Assembly (NCBI GenBank): GCA_951406725.2
Contig: OX597833.1
Location: forward strand, 64,480,001 to 64,544,000
Reading direction: 5' to 3'
DNA from: Octopus vulgaris
Lineage: Eukaryota
Length of the DNA stretch: 64,000 nucleotides
The position numbers and the translations under genes were made by a program. Below, one piece after another: positions 38,119 through 63,359 of this stretch (position 1 is the stretch's first letter; every line of letters begins with the position of its first letter). The notes under the pieces are model-generated. The model had not been told where the DNA came from. It did no database searches and saw nothing but the letters and a program-made list of their open reading frames with translations.

Positions 38119-39444
38119 ATTTTATCGACCCTAGAAGGGAGGAAATATTAAACAGACTCCGGCGTGATTAGAAATCTGAACGTAAAGTGACACAACAATG
38201 TAATATCCAAATTTTCTATAATGGATGGTATCCCAACCGTGACTCTCACGTTTGTTTAATTGTCTATCATCATCTAAATGCTCATTTTATCGACACTAGA
38301 AGGGAGGAAATATTAAACAGACTCCGGCGTGATTAGAAATCTGAACGTAAAGTGACACAACAATGTAATATCTAACTTTTCTATGGTGGATGGTATCCCA
38401 ACCGTGGCTCTCACGTTTGTTTAATTGTCTATCATCATCTAAATGCTCATTTTATCGACCCTAGAAGGGAGGAAATATTAAATAGACGCAGGCGTGATTA
38501 GAAATCTGAACGTAAAGTGACACAACAATGTAATATCCAAATTTTCTATAATGGATGGTATCCCAACCGTGACTCTCACGTTTGTTTAATTGTCTATCAT
38601 CATCTAAATGCTCATTTTATCGACCCTAGAAGGGAGGAAATATTAAACAAACGCAGGCGTGATTAGAAATCTGAACGTAAAGTGACACAACAATGTAATA
38701 TCTAACTTTTCTATAATGGATGGTATCCCAACCGTGACTCTCACGTTTGTTTAATTGTCTATCATCATCTAAATGCTCATTTTATCGACCCTAGAAGGGA
38801 GGAAATATTAAACAAACGCCGGCGTGATTAGAAATCTGAACGTAAAGTGACACAACAATGTAATATCCAAATTTTCTATAATGGATGGTATCCCAACCGT
38901 GACTCTCACGTTTGTTTAATTGTCTATCATCATCTAAATGCTCATTTTATCGACCCTAGAAGGGAGGAAATATTAAACAAACGCCGGCGTGATTAGAAAT
39001 CTGAACGTAAAGTGACACAACAATGTAATATCCAAATTTTCTATAATGGATGGTATCCCAACCGTGACTCTCACGTTTGTTTAATTGTCTATCATCATCT
39101 AAATGCTCATTTTATCGACCCTAGAAGGGAGGAAATATTAAACAAACGCCGGCGTGATTAGAAATCTGAACGTAAAGTGACACAACAATGTAATATCCAA
39201 ATTTTCTATAATGGATGGTATCCCAACCGTGACTCTCACGTTTGTTTAATTGTCTATCATCATCTAAATGCTCATTTTATCGACCCTAGAAGGGAGGAAA
39301 TATTAAATAGACGCCGGCGTGATTAGAAATCTGAACGTAAAGTAACACAACAATGTAATATCGAAATTTTCTCTGAAGGATGGTATCCCAACCGTGGCCC
39401 CCGCGTTTGTTTAATTGTCTATCATCATCTAAATGCTCATTTTT
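38119..39444. repeat. 165-bp tandem repeat, 8 copies
   Basis: TTTATCGAC starts at 38121, 38286, 38451, 38616, 38781, 38946, 39111 and 39276; a few variants between copies. Confidence 0.95.
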
Positions 39445-39625
39445 ATATATATTGTTGGTTATCCACACATCCTCTGATATAGCAAAGGATTGAATATAAT
39501 CCAACCATGACCCTCACTTTTGTTTAATTGTCTATCATCGTCTAAATGCTCATTTTTATATATATTGTTGGTTATCCACACATCCTCTGATACAGCAAAG
39601 GATTGAATATAATCCAACCATGACC
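39408..39625. repeat. 113-bp tandem duplication at the end of the 165-bp array
   Basis: TGTTTAATTGTCTATCATC..CCAACCATGACC at 39408 and 39521. Confidence 0.9.
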
Positions 39626-40596
39626 ACCTCTTTTAAAGTATTAATTTCAAACTTTGACAGAAGCCCAGCAATTTCGGGAGAAGGATAAATCGATCATCTC
39701 GACCCCCAGTGATTAACTGGTTCTTATTTTTAAGCCTGCACTAACCACGAAGAAAGAAAAATATTTGCTGTTACCATTCGGTTATTTTAGATGATGGCGG
39801 AGACTAATTTATTAAATGCAAATTGTTGGGTGTCGACGAGGACTTGGCTGTTGTTTCTGTTCTGACTGGTGACAGCACAGAAGTATTTTCCTTGGCACGA
39901 CATAAATTTTAGATAAAAATTGTTTTTTTAGGTTGGGTAAACAATGTTTTAGTTTAGACAATTGACACCGTTCGTTCCTGAGCTTCTTCAGGTTTCTTCA
40001 GAAAGAAACGAAGGAACGAAAAACAAAAAATAATATAAAAACAATAAGGAGAAAGGACTGAAAGAAAGGAAGGAAATGATGAAGGAAAAGCAAAAAAAAA
40101 AAAAAATACTGCAAAGAAGTATTGCCAGAATGAAAGGATATTAACAAAATAAATATTTTTCACATTGCTAAAGGCTATTTGCAGTGAAAGGAATTAATAG
40201 ATTCCGCTGTCAGTCACGTGGCATATCCGAAAATAGAGCTGAAGTCTCTTGCGATTCTATAGTACTAATAATAAATGGCTTCGTGTATTGATACAAGAAT
40301 TCATATTGGTAGATAAGACAGACATACAGACATACAGGCAGGCAGATACATCGTTGTTGATTAACTCAACGGCAGTAGGAATGGTTACCGAACCAGTAAG
40401 AATTATTAGTCAGGTTTTATTCAAATTACGACATAAAATATGAGCAGTGGGTGGTAGAAGAGTCAGGGCGGTGGGGACAAGATGACTTGTGTGATTTGTT
40501 CCGATATTTTGGTCTGTGAGTTAAAAATCCCTCAATGTTTCATTCTGCATTTTAGAATTGAGAAATAAAGTACCAGCCCTATTATTTAGGAATATA

Positions 40597-41990: not shown

Positions 41991-42587
41991 AGGCGGCGAG
42001 CTGGCAGAAACGTTAGCATGCCGGGCGAAATGCGTAGCCGTATTTTGTCTGCCGTTACGTTCTGAGTTCAAATTCCGCCGAGGTCGACTTTGCATTTCAT
42101 TCTTCCGGGGTCGATAAATTAAGTACCATTTACGCACAGGGTTCGATGTAATCGATTTAATCCGTTTGTATGTCCTTGTTTGTCCCCTCTGTGTTTAGCC
42201 CCTTGTGGGTAGTAAAGGAATAGGTAATTCGTCTGCCGTTACGTTCTGAGTTCAAATTCCGCCAAAGTCGACTTTACGTTTCATCCTTTCGGGGTCGATT
42301 AAATAAGTATCAGTTAAGCACTGGGGTCGATGTAATCGATTTAATCCGTTTGTATATCCTTGTTTGTCCTCTCTTTGTTTAGCCCCTTGTGGGTAGTAAA
42401 GAAATAGGTATTTCGTCTGCCGTTACGTTCTGAGTTCAAATTCCGCCGAGGTCGACTTTGCCTTTCATCCTTTCGGGGTCGATTAAATAAGTACTAGTTG
42501 AACACTTGGGTCGATGTAATCGACTTAGTCCCATTGTCTGTCATATTTATCCCCTCTATGTTTAGCTTATTGTGGAGAATAAAGAAT
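41991..42587 (+). mobile_element. SINE family B trimer (one full unit plus two headless units)
   Basis: Repeat units restart at 42223 and 42407 (about 184 bp). Confidence 0.85.
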
Positions 42588-48249: not shown

Positions 48250-49040
48250 GCGGTGAGCTGGCAGAAACGTTAGCACGCCGGGCGAAATGCGTAGCCGTAT
48301 TTCGTCTGTCGTTACGTTCTGAGTTCAAATTCTGCCGAGGTCAACTTTGCCTTTCATCGTTTCGGGGTCGATAAATTAAGTACCAGTTACGCACTGGGGT
48401 CGATGTAATCGACGTAATCCCTTTGTCTGTTCTTGTTTGTCCTCTCTGTGTTTAGCCCCTTGTGGGTAGTAAAGAAATAGGTGTTTTGTCTGCCGCTACG
48501 TTCTGAGTTCAAATATCACCGAAGTCGAATTTGCCTTTCATCCTTTCGTGGTCGATTAAATAAGTACCAGTTACGCACTGGGGTAGTTATAATCGACTTT
48601 ATCCGTTTGTTTGTCCTTGTTTGTCCCCTGTATGTTTATCCTCTTGTGGGCAATAAAGAAATAAGAAACGTTAGCACGCCGGGCGAAATGTGTAGCCGAG
48701 TTCAAATTCCGCCAAGGTCGACTTTGTCTTTCATCCTTTAGGGGTCCATTAAATAAGTATCAGTCACGCACTGGGGTCGGTGTAATCGACTTAATCCGTG
48801 TGTCTGTCCTTGTTCGTCCTCTCTGTGTTTAGCCCCTTGTGGGTAGTAAAAAAATAGGTATTTCGTCTGTCGTTACGTTCTGAGTTCAAGTTCCGCCAAG
48901 GTCGACTTTGTCTTTCATCCTTTAGGGGTCCATTAAATAAGTATCAGTCACACACTGGGGTCGATGTAATCGACTTAATCCGTGTGTCTGTCCTTGTTTG
49001 TCCCTTCTGTGTTTAGCCCCTTGTGGGCAATAAATAAATA
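48250..49040 (+). mobile_element. SINE family B tetramer with 14-bp target-site duplication
   Basis: Units at 48250, 48480, 48664 and 48857; TATAATCCTCTAAG at 48230-48243 and 49041-49054. Confidence 0.85.
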
Positions 49041-51270: not shown

Positions 51271-51306
<36 letters not shown>

Positions 51307-51387
51307 GGATGTGAGTCTGTACATATATATATATATATGTGTATGTATATAAATACATATATATATATGTATATATATGTATACATA

Positions 51388-51436
<49 letters not shown>

Positions 51437-51554
51437 CAATTAAGGAACGGCCATAATAGGCCATTCACCCACTAGAAATAACAGCCAAAGCTTCTACCGC
51501 AAATAAAGATCAATTCCGTAAACAGGAGAAAATTAAAAAAACATTTACCCTGTA

Positions 51555-54086
51555 ATTTCTTGTACGGTATACCGTTTCATCTGCTGTTTAATGGTAAACT
51601 AACCTGATTAAATTAAATCAAGCCAATCTTCCATAAGCCCTCAGATTCTTCAGCAAGAAATAGCTCAAGTCGGAACAGATATTTACACGAGGCATACCCA
51701 ATCCTGCCAAGGCAATATCTGACCTAAAATTTTCAAATCGTCGCACTCGCGCCAAATTTATCGGCAGCAAATAAATCGTCGATTCCATTACGGAATTAAC
51801 CAAAAAATTCATAATTAATCAATATAGGGTGGCAAGGAAAATTTTGTAGAATTTTTTTGCCACCAGCGGCCCAGTGGGAAAAAATTAAATAGTCATAGAC
51901 CATTTTTAAGTTCAACATTAACAATTAAGGAACGGCCATAATAGGCCATTCACCCACTAGAAATAACAGCCAAAGCTTCTACCGCAAATAAAGATCAATT
52001 CCGTAAACAGGAGAAAATTAAAAAAACATTTACCCTGTAATTTCTTGTACGGTATACCGTTTCATCTGCTGTTTAATGGTAAACTAACCTGATTAAATTA
52101 AATCAAGCCAATCTTCCATAAGCCCTCAGATTCTTCAGCAAGAAATAGCTCAAGTCGGAACAGATATTTACACGAGGCATACCCAATCCTGCCAAGGCAA
52201 TATCTGACCTAAAATTTTCAAATCGTCGCACTCGCGCCAAATTTATCGGCAGCAAATAAATCGTCGATTCCATTACGGAATTAACCAAAAAATTCATAAT
52301 TAATCAATATAGGGTGGCAAGGAAAATTTTGTAGAATTTTTTTGCCACCAGCGGCCCAGTGGGAAAAAATTAAATAGTCATAGACCATTTTTAAGTTCAA
52401 CATTAACAATTAAGGAACGGCCATAATAGGCCATTCACCCACTAGAAATAACAGCCAAAGCTTCTACCGCAAATAAAGATCAATTCCGTAAACAGGAGAA
52501 AATTAAAAAAACATTTACCCTGTAATTTCTTGTACGGTATACCGTTTCATCTGCTGTTTAATGGTAAACTAACCTGATTAAATTAAATCAAGCCAATCTT
52601 CCATAAGCCCTCAGATTCTTCAGCAAGAAATAGCTCAAGTCGGAACAGATATTTACACGAGGCATACCCAATCCTGCCAAGGCAATATCTGACCTAAAAT
52701 TTTCAAATCGTCGCACTCGCGCCAAATTTATCGGCAGCAAATAAATCGTCGATTCCATTACGGAATTAACCAAAAAATTCATAATTAATCAATATAGGGT
52801 GGCAAGGAAAATTTTGTAGAATTTTTTTGCCACCAGCGGCCCAGTGGGAAAAAATTAAATAGTCATAGACCATTTTTAAGTTCAACATTAACAATTAAGG
52901 AACGGCCATAATAGGCCATTCACCCACTAGAAATAACAGCCAAAGCTTCTACCGCAAATAAAGATCAATTCCGTAAACAGGAGAAAATTAAAAAAACATT
53001 TACCCTGTAATTTCTTGTACGGTATACCGTTTCATCTGCTGTTTAATGGTAAACTAACCTGATTAAATTAAATCAAGCCAATCTTCCATAAGCCCTCAGA
53101 TTCTTCAGCAAGAAATAGCTCAAGTCGGAACAGATATTTACACGAGGCATACCCAATCCTGCCAAGGCAATATCTGACCTAAAATTTTCAAATCGTCGCA
53201 CTCGCGCCAAATTTATCGGCAGCAAATAAATCGTCGATTCCATTACGGAATTAACCAAAAAATTCATAATTAATCAATATAGGGTGGCAAGGAAAATTTT
53301 GTAGAATTTTTTTGCCACCAGCGGCCCAGTGGGAAAAAATTAAATAGTCATAGACCATTTTTAAGTTCAACATTAACAATTAAGGAACGGCCATAATAGG
53401 CCATTCACCCACTAGAAATAACAGCCAAAGCTTCTACCGCAAATAAAGATCAATTCCGTAAACAGGAGAAAATTAAAAAAACATTTACCCTGTAATTTCT
53501 TGTACGGTATACCGTTTCATCTGCTGTTTAATGGTAAACTAACCTGATTAAATTAAATCAAGCCAATCTTCCATAAGCCCTCAGATTCTTCAGCAAGAAA
53601 TAGCTCAAGTCGGAACAGATATTTACACGAGGCATACCCAATCCTGCCAAGGCAATATCTGACCTAAAATTTTCAAATCGTCGCACTCGCGCCAAATTTA
53701 TCGGCAGCAAATAAATCGTCGATTCCATTACGGAATTAACCAAAAAATTCATAATTAATCAATATAGGGTGGCAAGGAAAATTTTGTAGAATTTTTTTGC
53801 CACCAGCGGCCCAGTGGGAAAAAATTAAATAGTCATAGACCATTTTTAAGTTCAACATTAACAATTAAGGAACGGCCATAATAGGCCATTCACCCACTAG
53901 AAATAACAGCCAAAGCTTCTACCGCAAATAAAGATCAATTCCGTAAACAGGAGAAAATTAAAAAAACATTTACCCTGTAATTTCTTGTACGGTATACCGT
54001 TTCATCTGCTGTTTAATGGTAAACTAACCTGATTAAATTAAATCAAGCCAATCTTCCATAAGCCCTCAGATTCTTCAGCAAGAAAT
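51555..54086 (-). ncRNA. Six minus-strand copies of the same hammerhead: 51555-51661, 52040-52146, 52525-52631, 53010-53116, 53495-53601, 53980-54086
   Basis: Reverse complement of the 54388-54494 motif, repeated every 485 bp in the inverted part of the array. Confidence 0.88.
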
Positions 54087-54387
54087 AGCTCAAGTCGGAA
54101 CAGATATTTACACGAGGCATACCCTTGTTAATGTTGAACTTAAAAATGGTCTATGACTATTTAATTTTTTCCCACTGGGCCGCTGGTGGCAAAAAAATTC
54201 TACAAAATTTTCCTTGCCACCCTATATTGATTAATTATGAATTTTTTGGTTAATTCCGTAATGGAATCGACGATTTATTTGCTGCCGATAAATTTGGCGC
54301 GAGTGCGACGATTTGAAAATTTTAGGTCAGATATTGCCTTGGCAGGATTGGGTATGCCTCGTGTAAATATCTGTTCCGACTTGAGCT

Positions 54388-54494
54388 ATTTCTTGCTGAA
54401 GAATCTGAGGGCTTATGGAAGATTGGCTTGATTTAATTTAATCAGGTTAGTTTACCATTAAACAGCAGATGAAACGGTATACCGTACAAGAAAT
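54388..54494 (+). ncRNA. Type I hammerhead ribozyme with extended stem II
   Basis: Stem I ATTTCTTG (54388-54395)/CAAGAAAT (54487-54494); core CTGAAGA (54396-54402); stem II ATCTG (54403-54407)/CAGAT (54466-54470); GAAA (54471-54474); stem III A-CGG-TATA-CCG-T; cleavage triplet GUA, predicted cut after 54486. Confidence 0.88.
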
Positions 54495-54872
54495 TACAGG
54501 GTAAATGTTTTTTTAATTTTCTCCTGTTTACGGAATTGATCTTTATTTGCGGTAGAAGCTTTGGCTGTTATTTCTAGTGGGTGAATGGCCTATTATGGCC
54601 GTTCCTTAATTGTTAATGTTGAACTTAAAAATGGTCTATGACTATTTAATTTTTTCCCACTGGGCCGCTGGTGGCAAAAAAATTCTACAAAATTTTCCTT
54701 GCCACCCTATATTGATTAATTATGAATTTTTTGGTTAATTCCGTAATGGAATCGACGATTTATTTGCTGCCGATAAATTTGGCGCGAGTGCGACGATTTG
54801 AAAATTTTAGGTCAGATATTGCCTTGGCAGGATTGGGTATGCCTCGTGTAAATATCTGTTCCGACTTGAGCT

Positions 54873-54979
54873 ATTTCTTGCTGAAGAATCTGAGGGCTTA
54901 TGGAAGATTGGCTTGATTTAATTTAATCAGGTTAGTTTACCATTAAACAGCAGATGAAACGGTATACCGTACAAGAAAT
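54873..54979 (+). ncRNA. Type I hammerhead ribozyme (array copy)
   Basis: Identical to 54388-54494, offset +485. Confidence 0.88.
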
Positions 54980-55357
54980 TACAGGGTAAATGTTTTTTTA
55001 ATTTTCTCCTGTTTACGGAATTGATCTTTATTTGCGGTAGAAGCTTTGGCTGTTATTTCTAGTGGGTGAATGGCCTATTATGGCCGTTCCTTAATTGTTA
55101 ATGTTGAACTTAAAAATGGTCTATGACTATTTAATTTTTTCCCACTGGGCCGCTGGTGGCAAAAAAATTCTACAAAATTTTCCTTGCCACCCTATATTGA
55201 TTAATTATGAATTTTTTGGTTAATTCCGTAATGGAATCGACGATTTATTTGCTGCCGATAAATTTGGCGCGAGTGCGACGATTTGAAAATTTTAGGTCAG
55301 ATATTGCCTTGGCAGGATTGGGTATGCCTCGTGTAAATATCTGTTCCGACTTGAGCT

Positions 55358-55464
55358 ATTTCTTGCTGAAGAATCTGAGGGCTTATGGAAGATTGGCTTG
55401 ATTTAATTTAATCAGGTTAGTTTACCATTAAACAGCAGATGAAACGGTATACCGTACAAGAAAT
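55358..55464 (+). ncRNA. Type I hammerhead ribozyme (array copy)
   Basis: Identical to 54388-54494, offset +970. Confidence 0.88.
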
Positions 55465-55684
55465 TACAGGGTAAATGTTTTTTTAATTTTCTCCTGTTTA
55501 CGGAATTGATCTTTATTTGCGGTAGAAGCTTTGGCTGTTATTTCTAGTGGGTGAATGGCCTATTATGGCCGTTCCTTAATTGTTAATGTTGAACTTATAA
55601 ATGGTCTATGACTATTTAATTTTTTCCCACTGGGCCGCTGGTGGCAAAAAAATTCTACAAAATTTTCCTTGCCACCCTATATTG

Positions 55685-55741
<57 letters not shown>

Positions 55742-55830
55742 GTATAAATATATATATGTATATATATATATGCAGCGAATTATATTTCGTACGATACTAC
55801 AAGAAATCGCACAAACATACTTATACGCAT

Positions 55831-55889
<59 letters not shown>

Positions 55890-56093
55890 CATATAGCTAC
55901 AATTCTCTGTATTGTGTTAAACGTGCATTACCTCGACCGGTGCCTTTCCTGTATTTGCTGTTCTTGGTAGCAGTAAGTGTTCTCTTCAGAAGGTTTTTCA
56001 ACACAGGCCGGTTTGAGGGGATATAAAATCTTCAATGGAGCAGGCCATTAATCGCATTACGAAACACAAGAGATTACATGATTCTATTATTCT

Positions 56094-60293: not shown

Positions 60294-61017
60294 GTGTGTG
60301 TATGTGTGTGTGTGTGTGTGTGTGTGTCTGTGTGTGTGAGAACCTATGCGTGTGTGTATGTAAGTATATATTCGTACGGGCGCGGTCACATATCCTCATC
60401 TATGTGTCACCGTTTGTCTGTGTGCCTCATTTCTCTCTCACTATCTCTCTTTCTCTCTCTTTCTCTCTTTCACTCTAACTCTCTCTGTCTCTTTTTCCCT
60501 CTCTCTCTCTCTCTCTTTCTCTCTTTCTCTTTCTGAGTGTGTGCCTTCTTATAAATTTGCCTATGAACTCTTTGTACATGTATGCTTCCAGTAAATGATT
60601 GTTTAAGATCAATACAAATAGTTACAACCTCGGGCTATAACTGTCTTTAGTGTAAATGGAAATTTAATTACAATGTGGAAAAGACAATCACACACAGAAA
60701 CAAACACGCACACACATCTATCTAAAAATACGCACAATGACACACACACACACATAGATATGTGTGTGTCATTACATATGCATATATGTATAAGCATGCT
60801 CTATCTGTTTAATCACGCGTATATTGATGTATGTAATTATAGACACATATGTATTTATACGTATACATAAATGCATATACACATACATACGTAGATGTAT
60901 ATATACATTTACACATGTTCACATTTACATATATAAATACACATACACATACATACCGGAATCTATATATACACATATATGTATATATGTGCATATATAT
61001 ATGTATATAATAATATT

Positions 61018-61076
<59 letters not shown>

Positions 61077-61197
61077 ATGTACATATATATATATACATAT
61101 ACATATACATATATATACATATATATATACACACAAACACACATATATATATAAATTTTATATGTATATATATACATATATATATACATATATATAC

Positions 61198-61239
<42 letters not shown>

Positions 61240-61250
<11 letters not shown>

Positions 61251-61979
61251 TAAATATATATTTATTCATTTGTACATGTATATTTACATACTCACATTCA
61301 CATCTATTTCCAGGCTATGCAAAACAAAACAATGAAATCATTGTTTTTAAATCAATTTATCTAGCAACAGAAAATAGAAACATTTCGTTTCCTTCATTAA
61401 AATCCATTATATTTTCATAATGATTTCCTCCTATTCCTTTCTGTAATTTCGCAGACGCGTATAATACATAATACAATATAACATATAAGACAATCTAATA
61501 TATCTCGTGATGTTTTTCTTTAAATATATTTTAGTCATCAATTATTTTATTGTTTGTCTCGGTTATGTTATATCACTCGAGCGGCCATGCTGTATCACTC
61601 ATCAAAGATGGCTTTCGTTTCTTTCCAGACTATATTTGACGCCATTACCTCTTTTAAATTTTAGTCTGCTGACCTTATTTTATTGATTTTTATAATTCTT
61701 AAATCGTTGATTTATTTACTGTCTCGATGTAAAAGGAAGCTAGATTCATATTTTACGTCTTATGTGATTATATATGTATATATATATATACACGCATATA
61801 CGCTCTCTTTGTTTTTATGTTTGGCTATTAGATAAATCATAGCGTAATATTATAAAATATTGTTTGTGATCCATATTTATCCCATCAGCAAAATGATAAA
61901 ATGCAAAACAATGCATACTTGGACAAGCATGGTTTATTTGTTTGTTAATGCCACTGAATGAAGATAAACACGTACACCA

Positions 61980-62046
<67 letters not shown>

Positions 62047-62274
62047 CTTTTACTCTTTTACTCTTTTACTTGTTTCAGTCATTTGACTGCGGCCATGCTG
62101 GAGCACCGCCTTTAGTCGAGCAACTCGAACCCGGGGACTTTATTCTTTTGTAAGCCCAGTACTTATTCAATCGGTCTTTTTTGCTGAACCGCTAAGTGAC
62201 GGCGACGTAAAAACACCAGCATCGGTTGTCAAGCAATGCTAGGGGGACAAACACAGACACACAAACATATGCGC

Positions 62275-62318
<44 letters not shown>

Positions 62319-62375
62319 ATACTTAAATACATTTATATATATATTTATATATATACTTATATACATATTTATATA

Positions 62376-62408
<33 letters not shown>

Positions 62409-62549
62409 CGTATATATATATATATATATATATACATAAACATATATACGTATATACATAAGCATATATATATATGTATATGTACATATATATATATATA
62501 TATATATGTATATACATACATATATATATATACATACATATATATATAT

Positions 62550-62622
<73 letters not shown>

Positions 62623-63359
62623 TAAATATATATTTATTCATTTGTACATGTATATTTACATACTCACATTCACATCTATTTCCAGGCTATGCAAAACAAA
62701 ACAATGAAATCATTGTTTTTAAATCAATTTATCTAGCAACAGAAAATAGAAACATTTCGTTTCCTTCATTAAAATCCATTATATTTTCATAATGATTTCC
62801 TCCTATTCCACTTTATTGAAACGGAGTAACTGGCCTTATAATTTATAATACAATATAACATATAAGACAATCTAATATATCTCAGTGATGTTTTTCTTTA
62901 AATATATTTTAGTCATCAATTATTTTATTGTTTGTCTCGGTTATGTTATATCACTCGAGCGGCCATGCTGTATCACTCATCAAAGATGGCTTTCGTTTCT
63001 TTCCAGACTATATTTGACGCCATTACCTCTTTTAAATTTTAGTCTGCTGACCTTATTTTATTGATTTTTATAATTCTTAAATCGTTGATTTATTTACTGT
63101 CTCGATGTAAAAGGAAGCTAGATTCATATTTTACGTCTTATGTGATTATATATGTATATATATATATACACGCATATACGCTCTCTTTGTTTTTATGTTT
63201 ATGCTATTAGATAAATCATAGCGTAATATTATAAAATATTGTTTGTGATCCATATTTATCCCATCACGTAAAATGATAAAATGCAAAACAATGCATACTT
63301 GGACAAGCATGGTTTATTTGTTTGTTAATGCCACTGAATGAAGATAAACACGTACACCA

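What the first reader, a model, noticed from the sequence alone, without database searches (positions are those of the whole stretch)
51434..55688. Young 485-nt hammerhead retrozyme array: candidate self-cleaving circular RNA replicon
Seen: about 8.8 virtually identical 485-bp monomers in a (TA)n tract, each with a full type I hammerhead (8-bp stem I, CUGAAGA, 5-bp stem II base, GAAA, stem III ACGG-UAUA-CCGU, GUA site) and no credible ORF. Neither array end nor the internal junction coincides with the cleavage site. Known: metazoan non-LTR retrozymes are tandem repeats with type I hammerheads whose transcripts self-cleave to monomers and circularise; as I recall them, described monomers are mostly shorter than about 400 nt. 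Inference: the array is a single recent rolling-circle reverse transcript of a 485-nt circRNA, probably mobilised by a Penelope-like RT. I do not recognise this family, so it may be undescribed.
Basis: partly seen in the sequence, partly recalled or inferred. Interest (0 to 1): 0.95.

Follow-up and report, generated by a model that had tools for sequence, protein, structure and literature searches.

The report
Hammerhead retrozyme with Penelope-type insertion ends
This repeat array is a very recent copy of a small, non-coding jumping RNA with a self-cutting ribozyme (a known kind, the retrozyme), and the ends of its many genomic copies carry the mark of Penelope-like retrotransposon enzymes, which points to what moves such RNAs and makes it testable.

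Summary
The array is real, but it is two inverted arms (5.55 + 3.22 units of 485 bp, one mismatch in 4,255 bp, nine complete type I hammerheads), not one head-to-tail run. It belongs to a dispersed family (at least 2,738 hammerhead matches) in an octopus-like genome. Variation between subfamilies spares the catalytic core and includes two compensatory pairs. In 80 of 87 two-arm loci the outer ends lie at two fixed sites about 106 nt apart, one of each; none has the same site twice. This matches the known inverted-arm and 'tail' signature of Penelope-like elements (PLEs). An intact young PLE here also targets (TA)n and has two 3' ends, but shows no sequence link. Units within a locus differ by 0.16%, loci by 4.6%, which fits copying of a monomer circle; a linear multimer template is not excluded. 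Public contigs suggest expression and A-to-I editing. Cleavage and circles are untested. Nothing supports RNA-to-RNA replication, and 485 nt is within the published size range. Verdict: a new family of a known kind, valuable as a mechanistic test case.

The parts
51434..54124 (-). Left arm: 5.55 head-to-tail units, hammerhead-sense on minus; its RNA-3' end faces left and stops at site A
   Evidence: no mismatch to the unit
54125..55688 (+). Right arm: 3.22 units, hammerhead-sense on plus; its RNA-3' end faces right and stops at site B
   Evidence: one mismatch
54124..54125 (.). Blunt inversion junction where the two truncated (RNA-5') ends meet, unit phases 225 and 0
   Evidence: junction phases differ from locus to locus
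54388..54494 (+). Type I hammerhead (stem I 54388-95 with 54487-94; core 54396-54402; stem II 54403-07 with 54466-70; GAAA 54471-74; stem III 54474-85; predicted cut after 54486). Further + copies at 54873-54979 and 55358-55464
   Evidence: cleavage not tested
51555..54086 (-). Six hammerheads of the left arm (51555-51661, 52040-52146, 52525-52631, 53010-53116, 53495-53601, 53980-54086)
54487..54971 (+). One predicted cut-to-cut monomer RNA (485 nt, 36% GC), candidate circle; its predicted fold hides hammerhead stem I
   Evidence: circle inferred
54528..54746 (+). Branched domain closed by a 14-bp helix (54528-41 with 54733-46) that holds both start sites; candidate docking domain for the RT
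   Evidence: fold predicted, role inferred
54604..54617 (+). Site A (internal copy): AU-rich, partly unpaired, just after a hairpin; one outer end of insertions maps here
54707..54732 (+). Site B (internal copy): 26-nt unpaired AU-rich linker whose central 20 nt do not vary among sister subfamilies; the other outer end maps here, about 106 nt downstream of A
51275..51433 (.). Left (TA)n target tract
55689..55895 (.). Right (TA)n target tract; no target-site duplication can be defined inside the microsatellite

Best explanation
A protein-free retroelement (non-LTR retrozyme) that borrows the enzyme of a Penelope-like element. Steps: (1) arrays are transcribed (suggested by public contigs); (2) the hammerhead cuts the transcript to 485-nt monomers, which a host ligase closes into circles (inferred from the family; not shown here); (3) a PLE RT-GIY-YIG protein, probably a dimer, cuts a (TA)n tract on both strands and primes one cDNA from each end, one at site A and one at site B (end pattern shown in the genome; enzyme inferred); (4) each RT runs round the circle for a roughly exponential distance, here 5.55 and 3.22 laps (inferred); (5) the truncated ends are joined, giving two inverted arms with RNA-3' ends outward (shown). 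A cut linear monomer cannot be the full template: A and B lie only about 130 and 236 nt from its 5' end. My odds by step: retrozyme 0.93; PLE-type enzyme 0.88; circle as direct template 0.6; the 781-aa PLE found here as the partner 0.4.
For: End rule: 70 of 75 two-arm loci (of 99 analysed) have one A end and one B end, none A/A or B/B, 5 other; all 75 have the minus arm first. A further 20 loci picked by a hammerhead pattern gave 10 of 12. In the two sets not picked by an end, 38 of 43. PLE insertions are described with inverted truncated copies and a 30-40-bp tail often at one end only (PMC8557442, passages); the tail lies between two internal RT start sites of a protein that cuts and extends both strands and is modelled as a dimer (PMC11167929, main text). 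A PLE with RT and GIY-YIG Pfam matches has many 99-100% copies with a 781-codon open frame, sits in (TA)n, has two 3' ends about 40 nt apart, and both of its inverted copies among 12 fetched have one end of each type. Bottleneck: unit divergence 0.16% within an arm, 0.23% between arms, 4.6% between loci; 38 substitutions seen in one locus only are in every covering unit, 27 of them in both arms. No base is missing at the cut site in 265 crossings. Arm lengths fit one exponential across the one-unit mark (63 arms, KS p = 0.85). In 17 of 67 simple A+B loci both arms end at the same template point (3.3 expected). In L128 one arm alternates ABAB at two linked sites, one of which breaks stem III, as a dimer circle would give. 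Hammerhead selection: of 13 core positions only N7 (all four bases) and H17 (A or C, never G) vary between subfamilies; 98.7% of 238 stem cells pair, with 2 compensatory pairs.
Against: No cleavage, circle or strand was shown; only contigs were available. The PLE found has no significant similarity to the retrozyme (local score 57 against 45 for the reverse strand; no profile hit; shared-motif test failed), and no chimera was found. The A-B distance (about 106 nt) exceeds the published tail. In the young subfamily arms stop 4.2 times more often in the 42 nt just 3' of the cut on later laps (19 stops, p = 2e-6, window chosen after seeing the data), which also fits linear multimers with a cut 5' end; sister subfamilies do not show it (ratio 0.96). 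In vitro a PLE mainly used uncut RNA. L065 is a non-periodic mosaic of two haplotypes over 17 units; 7 of 59 two-arm loci have discordant arms. Repeating variants in L099, L173, L174 and L177 could be block duplications after insertion. The covariation rests on 14 related sequences and few independent events.
Confidence: 0.62

Rival explanations
1. Same PLE enzyme and same two start sites, but the template is a linear multimeric transcript of a genomic array, only partly cut by the hammerhead; circles may exist but are not what gets copied.
For: Excess stops just 3' of the cut site after several units in the young subfamily; both arms ending at one template point in 17 of 67 loci; the L065 mosaic; uncut RNA is the main PLE substrate in vitro; axolotl retrozymes accumulate dimers and trimers.
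Against: Arrays would inherit unit-to-unit differences and shorten each generation. Instead variants are fixed array-wide, only 4 of the single-unit variant types recur in a second locus (95 variants), and identical arrays of 7-12 units lie on different chromosomes. A monomer step is needed somewhere in the cycle.
Confidence: 0.24
2. Short PLE-type insertions of one or two units grew into arrays afterwards by unequal crossover or slippage (the local amplification discussed in the 2026 preprint).
For: Periodic shared variants confined to one arm in some more diverged loci (L099, L173, L174, L177).
Against: This array has 8.8 units with one mismatch and is identical to units on other chromosomes; arm lengths show no break at one unit.
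Confidence: 0.06
3. The circle also replicates RNA-to-RNA like a viroid, giving plus-strand multimers that the PLE enzyme then copies (the 'replicon' reading).
For: It would explain both array-wide fixation and stops at the cut site; Cervera and de la Pena raise RNA-RNA replication as one possibility for mussel retrozymes.
Against: No hammerhead core on the antisense strand; the deepest contigs of run X2 match the genomic unit exactly; inverted arms give antisense RNA by plain read-through; no direct evidence.
Confidence: 0.05
4. LINE-type twin priming, or a fold-back artefact of sequencing or assembly.
For: In this locus the left outer end lies within 6 nt of the phase where the right arm starts, as twin priming predicts. 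No raw long read across the array was seen.
Against: That coincidence is not general: 6 of 75 loci within 10 nt; no poly(A) tail; a fold-back cannot give one A end and one B end; the same architecture recurs in 87 two-arm loci, in a 69%-identical relative, and strand-inversion joints occur in an independent DNA run (X5); 19 runs with three organism labels hold over half of the words.
Confidence: 0.03

Closest known systems
Metazoan non-LTR retrozymes (Cervera and de la Pena 2020, PMC7229834; read: results and discussion, parts 2-4 of 6; supplement not readable)
   Same: Short non-coding tandem units, GC under 50%, one type I hammerhead per unit, strongly self-paired monomer, no LTR structure, co-occurrence with PLEs; their model is RT copying of a circle into tandem cDNA.
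   Different: Unit 485-493 nt against about 170-400 nt; 58-nt extension of stem II; predicted circle fold hides the ribozyme, unlike most metazoan cases they describe; fixed two-site ends and inverted arms are not described in the parts read; cleavage and circles shown there, not here.
Animal retrozymes as non-autonomous PLE sequences (Li, Clavereau, Pollet, bioRxiv 10.64898/2026.07.22.740005; read parts 1-3 of 5; supplements closed)
   Same: Proposes PLE origin and PLE mobilisation; size range 51-972 bp covers this unit.
   Different: Evidence there is co-occurrence and pLTR similarity in Xenopus; no mollusc among the groups named; insertion ends not analysed in the parts read; only 1 of 9 dimers cleaved in vitro. 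Here the ends carry the evidence and no pLTR similarity was found.
Penelope-like elements: tail and internal initiation (Frangieh et al. 2024, PMC11167929, parts 1-2 of 4; Craig et al. 2021, PMC8557442, passages)
   Same: Inverted 5'-truncated arms, two alternative 3' ends, microsatellite or AT-rich targets, two internal RT start sites.
   Different: No ORF; the two sites are about 106 nt apart rather than 30-40; arms run for up to 14 units; full hammerhead with a 4-bp stem III rather than a minimal one.
Viroids and viroid-like satellite RNAs (PMC7761336, passages)
   Same: Small, structured, hammerhead-bearing RNA expected to circularise.
   Different: Genome-encoded and spread through DNA copies; ribozyme on one strand only; no sign of RNA-to-RNA replication.

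Membership tests
Metazoan non-LTR retrozyme | Short tandem genomic units, each with a type I hammerhead | tested here: met
   485-bp units, 9 complete hammerheads; core conserved and stems covary. Rfam models do not hit.
Metazoan non-LTR retrozyme | No protein coding, no LTR pair around a unique middle, GC under 50% | tested here: met
   Longest frame inside a unit 66 codons; GC 36%; unit repeated throughout. PBS and PPT were not searched for.
Metazoan non-LTR retrozyme | Dispersed, mobile family | tested here: met
   252 matches in 40 scored of 1,282 candidates; 2,738 exact matches to a hammerhead pattern, 0 for the control.
Metazoan non-LTR retrozyme | Highly self-paired monomer | tested here: met
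   z = -7.2 linear, -6.2 circular; prediction only.
Metazoan non-LTR retrozyme | Transcribed | tested here: inconclusive
   Runs X1 and X2 (RNA is a guess) hold the unit with no cover of the unique flanks; X2 contig depth 750-3,800; one X1 contig has clustered sense-strand A>G changes. No DNA run of the same individual.
Metazoan non-LTR retrozyme | Self-cleavage, and accumulation of monomer circles | not testable with these tools
   Needs in vitro transcription and RNase R northern or raw reads; only contigs were offered.
Metazoan non-LTR retrozyme | Target-site duplication larger than 4 bp when present | tested here: inconclusive
   Ends merge with (TA)n; a duplication cannot be told from the tract.
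Penelope-like element (autonomous) | ORF with RT and GIY-YIG endonuclease | tested here: not met
   No ORF in the unit; such an ORF lies elsewhere in the genome.
Element mobilised by PLE enzymes | Inverted 5'-truncated arms with RNA-3' ends outward | tested here: met
   75 of 75 two-arm loci; 12 further two-arm loci in the same order.
Element mobilised by PLE enzymes | Two fixed internal 3' ends ('tail' at one end only) | tested here: met
   80 of 87 two-arm loci are A+B, none A/A or B/B; spacing about 106 nt, longer than the published 30-40.
Element mobilised by PLE enzymes | Sequence descent from the pLTR of a named PLE | tested here: not met
   No significant similarity to the one intact family examined or to GIY-YIG loci L130-L171; only 150 of 6,136 candidates were scored, so other PLE families are untested.
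Viroid-like replicon | Ribozymes in both polarities | tested here: not met
   No antisense hammerhead core; no Rfam ribozyme on either strand. Asymmetric replication would not need one.
Viroid-like replicon | RNA-templated minus-strand multimers | not testable with these tools
   Needs stranded long RNA reads.

The most novel reading that the evidence does not exclude
A currently mobile circular RNA is copied into the genome by two Penelope reverse transcriptases that dock on one structured domain, start at two fixed sites and both roll round the same circle, occasionally a dimer circle that forms when one hammerhead is broken. This would be a genomic record of rolling-circle target-primed reverse transcription, with template, start sites and an intact candidate enzyme all in one genome.
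Probability: 0.45. Interest if true: 0.78.

Novelty: new member of a known kind. Interest (0 to 1): 0.56.

Why it matters
Which enzyme moves animal retrozymes, and whether it copies the circle, is stated as open: the 2020 review says the repeats show no motif that reveals their partner, and the 2026 preprint infers a PLE link from co-occurrence and pLTR similarity and calls for mechanism. Here insertion ends and unit variants give a mechanistic fingerprint: a strict one-A-one-B rule, mapped start sites and a monomer bottleneck. The rule also bears on how PLE tails and inverted arms arise. Because template, start sites, target and an intact candidate protein are all defined, the published in vitro PLE assay could test it directly. 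An RT that primes internally on a circle and rolls would also be useful as a tool. The family itself is ordinary in kind; standard Rfam scans miss it.

Tried and rejected
Rfam, gathering and E<=10: no ribozyme. L1-type twin priming, suggested by this locus: not general. A-to-I editing as the source of array-fixed variants: no strand bias, A>G 10 against T>C 8 of 38. Stop hotspot next to the cut site as a family-wide mark of cleavage: holds for the young subfamily, but among arms of one unit or more in the held-out loci only 1 of 22 ended there and sister subfamilies show no excess on later laps; a U-tract with recurrent slippage lies in the same window (L049, L113), so a stall is an equal reading. 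Sequence link to the 781-aa PLE: alignment, profile and a 16-nt motif shared by four non-autonomous families all failed. Retrozyme-PLE chimeras: none; one PLE end lies 105 bp from L101. A lap-matched variant in both arms of L122 was dropped because it borders a T run. The lower depth of the X2 contig across the cut site (752 against 2,127 and 3,791) may reflect split variants and is not used. Rows dropped: L061 as a duplicate of L060 (99 of 100 loci counted); two loci lacked usable arms (97 used); L036, L051 and L173 show a very short B arm by eye but were counted as one-arm; 14 of 19 distinct units were aligned, those with large indels or near-duplicates left out. Paper searches without a description of this family or of retrozyme insertion ends; an octopus repeat annotation (PMC13282606, part 1 of 3, term search and supplement) does not contain the word ribozyme. 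Dfam and Repbase were not available; the supplements of PMC7229834 and of the preprint could not be seen and might list a cephalopod retrozyme. Earlier scan notes: nothing by sequence or place.
Full report
Observation. The feature is there. Between two TA tracts lie 4,255 bp made of a 485-bp unit: 5.55 copies on the minus strand (51434-54124) and 3.22 on the plus strand (54125-55688), with one mismatch in all and a blunt junction. The arms are inverted, RNA-3' ends outward. Each unit holds a type I hammerhead; nine are complete. The predicted cut is after 54486. No frame inside a unit exceeds 66 codons. The monomer folds well (z = -7.2). Rfam finds nothing relevant. Below, 'phase' counts from 54125 = 0, so the cut lies between phases 361 and 362.

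Host and family. The genome has 2.8 Gb in 227 contigs. I take it to be octopus-like from recalled features of its repeats; no call names it. The unit gave 252 matches in the 40 best of 1,282 candidates, many 100% identical on other chromosomes. A degenerate hammerhead pattern has 2,738 exact matches, the control none. Sister subfamilies lie 4-11% from the window's unit. Nineteen public runs under three organism labels hold more than half of the words, so the family is not an assembly artefact. No raw read across this array was seen.

The hammerhead is under selection. Across about 250 units from 97 loci, 11 of 13 core positions show at most 3 stray changes each; N7 takes all four bases and H17 is A or C, never G. 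On 14 aligned units 98.7% of 238 stem cells pair; the stem I closing pair and one stem II pair change on both sides, and slid controls pair at 37-48%. The sequences are related, so these are few independent events. In the predicted circle and in longer linear contexts stem I is hidden (probability 0.00-0.14) and forms only in the isolated ribozyme (0.94). That would protect a circle, but it also means cleavage may be slow or need help.

The ends follow a strict rule. I mapped 99 loci (the window, 38 further best matches after dropping one duplicate, 23 picked by one end, 37 by the other). Of 75 with two arms, all have the minus arm first, and 70 have one outer end at site A (phase 0-12) and the other at site B (phase 104-121): 41 A/B, 29 B/A, none A/A or B/B, 5 other. 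Twenty more loci picked by the hammerhead pattern gave 10 of 12. The sets not picked by an end give 38 of 43. By eye nearly all outer ends abut (TA)n. A relative only 69% identical has the same form. Both sites are AU-rich and largely unpaired, inside one domain closed by a 14-bp helix; phases 100-119 do not vary among the sister loci. Inner ends vary widely, and junctions show short overlaps or gaps.

This is the PLE signature. Craig et al. describe inverted truncated copies, a 30-40-bp tail often at one end only, and microsatellite bias. Frangieh et al. show that the tail lies between two internal RT start sites, that the protein cuts and extends both strands, and model it as a dimer. The genome holds such an enzyme: a 781-codon frame with RT and GIY-YIG matches and a cysteine-rich linker (Neptune- or Nematis-like by the description; clade not tested), in many copies 99-100% identical in the RT region. 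Of 12 copies fetched, 8 end at one site and 4 about 40 nt further, in (TA)n; the 2 with an inverted arm have one end of each type. Its pLTR has a minimal hammerhead-like motif with the U3-A8 core reported for PLEs. It shows no sequence link to the retrozyme and no chimera. An octopus annotation lists 31 recently active Penelope-like families, so the partner is open.

Circle or linear multimer. A cut linear monomer offers only about 130 nt from A and 236 nt from B, yet arms reach 14 units and no base is missing at the cut site in 265 crossings (insertions were not scored there, and none is listed at that site for the 40 loci). So the template is continuous across the cut. For a circle: divergence is 0.16% within arms, 0.23% between arms and 4.6% between loci (young set 0.12, 0.14, 0.78%). 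Thirty-eight substitutions seen in one locus only are in every covering unit, 27 in both arms, though some may mark unsampled subfamilies; the 95 single-unit changes are led by C>T and G>A in equal measure, as expected after insertion. Arm lengths fit one exponential. In L128 one arm alternates two linked variants over four laps, and one variant breaks stem III: a dimer circle with one dead ribozyme would give this. It is a single case and block duplication could mimic it.

Against a single circle: L065 is a non-periodic mosaic; 6 mosaic sites occur in 4 loci, of 50 with threefold cover; 7 of 59 two-arm loci have discordant arms, which suggests two templates at times; the held-out set adds repeating substitutions in 3 of 7 long loci. 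In the young subfamily arms stop 4.2 times more often just 3' of the cut on later laps, which fits a cut 5' end, a reopened circle, a stalling junction or the neighbouring U-tract; sister subfamilies lack this. In 17 of 67 loci both arms end at the same template point, which shows a shared template but not its shape. I put the circle at 0.6.

Expression. Runs X1 and X2 (RNA is the tool's guess) cover the unit but not the unique flanks; X2 has exact-match contigs at depth 750-3,800. One X1 contig (depth 23) has eight listed sense-strand A>G changes; five of these sites are never G in 228-240 genomic units. That fits A-to-I editing and so real RNA, but no matched DNA was laid, and contigs show neither strand nor circularity.

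Replicon claim. No antisense hammerhead core and no other evidence; kept as a 0.05 rival.

Comparison and novelty. It works like, and on all genomic criteria tested is, a metazoan non-LTR retrozyme; cleavage and circles are untested. The size is inside the range of a 2026 preprint. I found no description of this family or of retrozyme insertion ends in the searches made, but Dfam, Repbase, two sets of supplements and subscription papers were out of reach. Two unchecked notes of this scan report a PLE-type pattern for tRNA-bearing repeats in other animals, so the pattern may be common.

Verdict. New member of a known kind. Interest 0.56: the family is not surprising, but the A+B rule, the bottleneck and an intact candidate enzyme make an openly stated question testable.

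Noticed in passing
L163:744-5990 (G000:C6:133343243-133348489); also L160-L171: Young autonomous Penelope-like family of about 4.7 kb per unit, 781-codon RT-GIY-YIG frame, long upstream region that looks coding, pLTR with a minimal U3-A8 hammerhead-like motif and two 3' ends in (TA)n; many near-identical intact copies.
   Followed up: partly
L137:2500-2800; L192-L197: Another abundant non-coding family (2,555 candidates, 40 scored) with inverted arms in (TA)n; no convincing hammerhead in the five loci scanned; the arms look short and may stop before one.
   Followed up: partly
window 54562-54577 (+); L054:3495-3676; L137:2500-2800; L156:250-500: A 16-nt motif is shared by four otherwise different non-autonomous families, about 50-70 nt upstream of an end and followed by a hairpin; a candidate protein-binding site. 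It did not match the intact PLE above chance.
   Followed up: partly
L054:3440-4050: A 69%-identical relative with the same one-A-one-B form and, by eye, compensatory changes in the helices next to site A.
   Followed up: partly
L128:2792-4645: ABAB alternation of two linked variants, one breaking hammerhead stem III; fits a dimer circle.
   Followed up: yes
L065:737-9068: 17-unit locus that is a non-periodic mosaic of two haplotypes, with a copy of a sister subfamily about 300 bp away; unexplained.
   Followed up: partly
window 51615-51746 (run X1 contig): Cluster of sense-strand A>G changes in a probable RNA run, sparing the essential core adenines; possible A-to-I hyper-editing.
   Followed up: partly
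L060 and L061 (G000:C30, about 360 kb apart): The same insertion with the same flanks in inverted orientation: a segmental duplication or an assembly duplicate.
   Followed up: no
window 38119-39634: Array of 8 x 165 bp (97% matches) followed by 2.2 x 113 bp that shares part of the unit; no convincing hammerhead by a motif scan.
   Followed up: partly
window 42040-42566 and 48300-49040: Tandem copies of a 184-bp SINE-like unit (label recalled), 2.9 and 4.0 copies.
   Followed up: no
window 60794-61420 and 62211-62792: Two long frames on opposite strands end in the same 40 residues, which suggests an inverted duplication; seen only in the ORF list.
   Followed up: no
window 1-64000: No credible long ORF: all 44 frames of 130 codons or more look like microsatellite or low-complexity read-through by eye; short exons are not excluded.
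   Followed up: no
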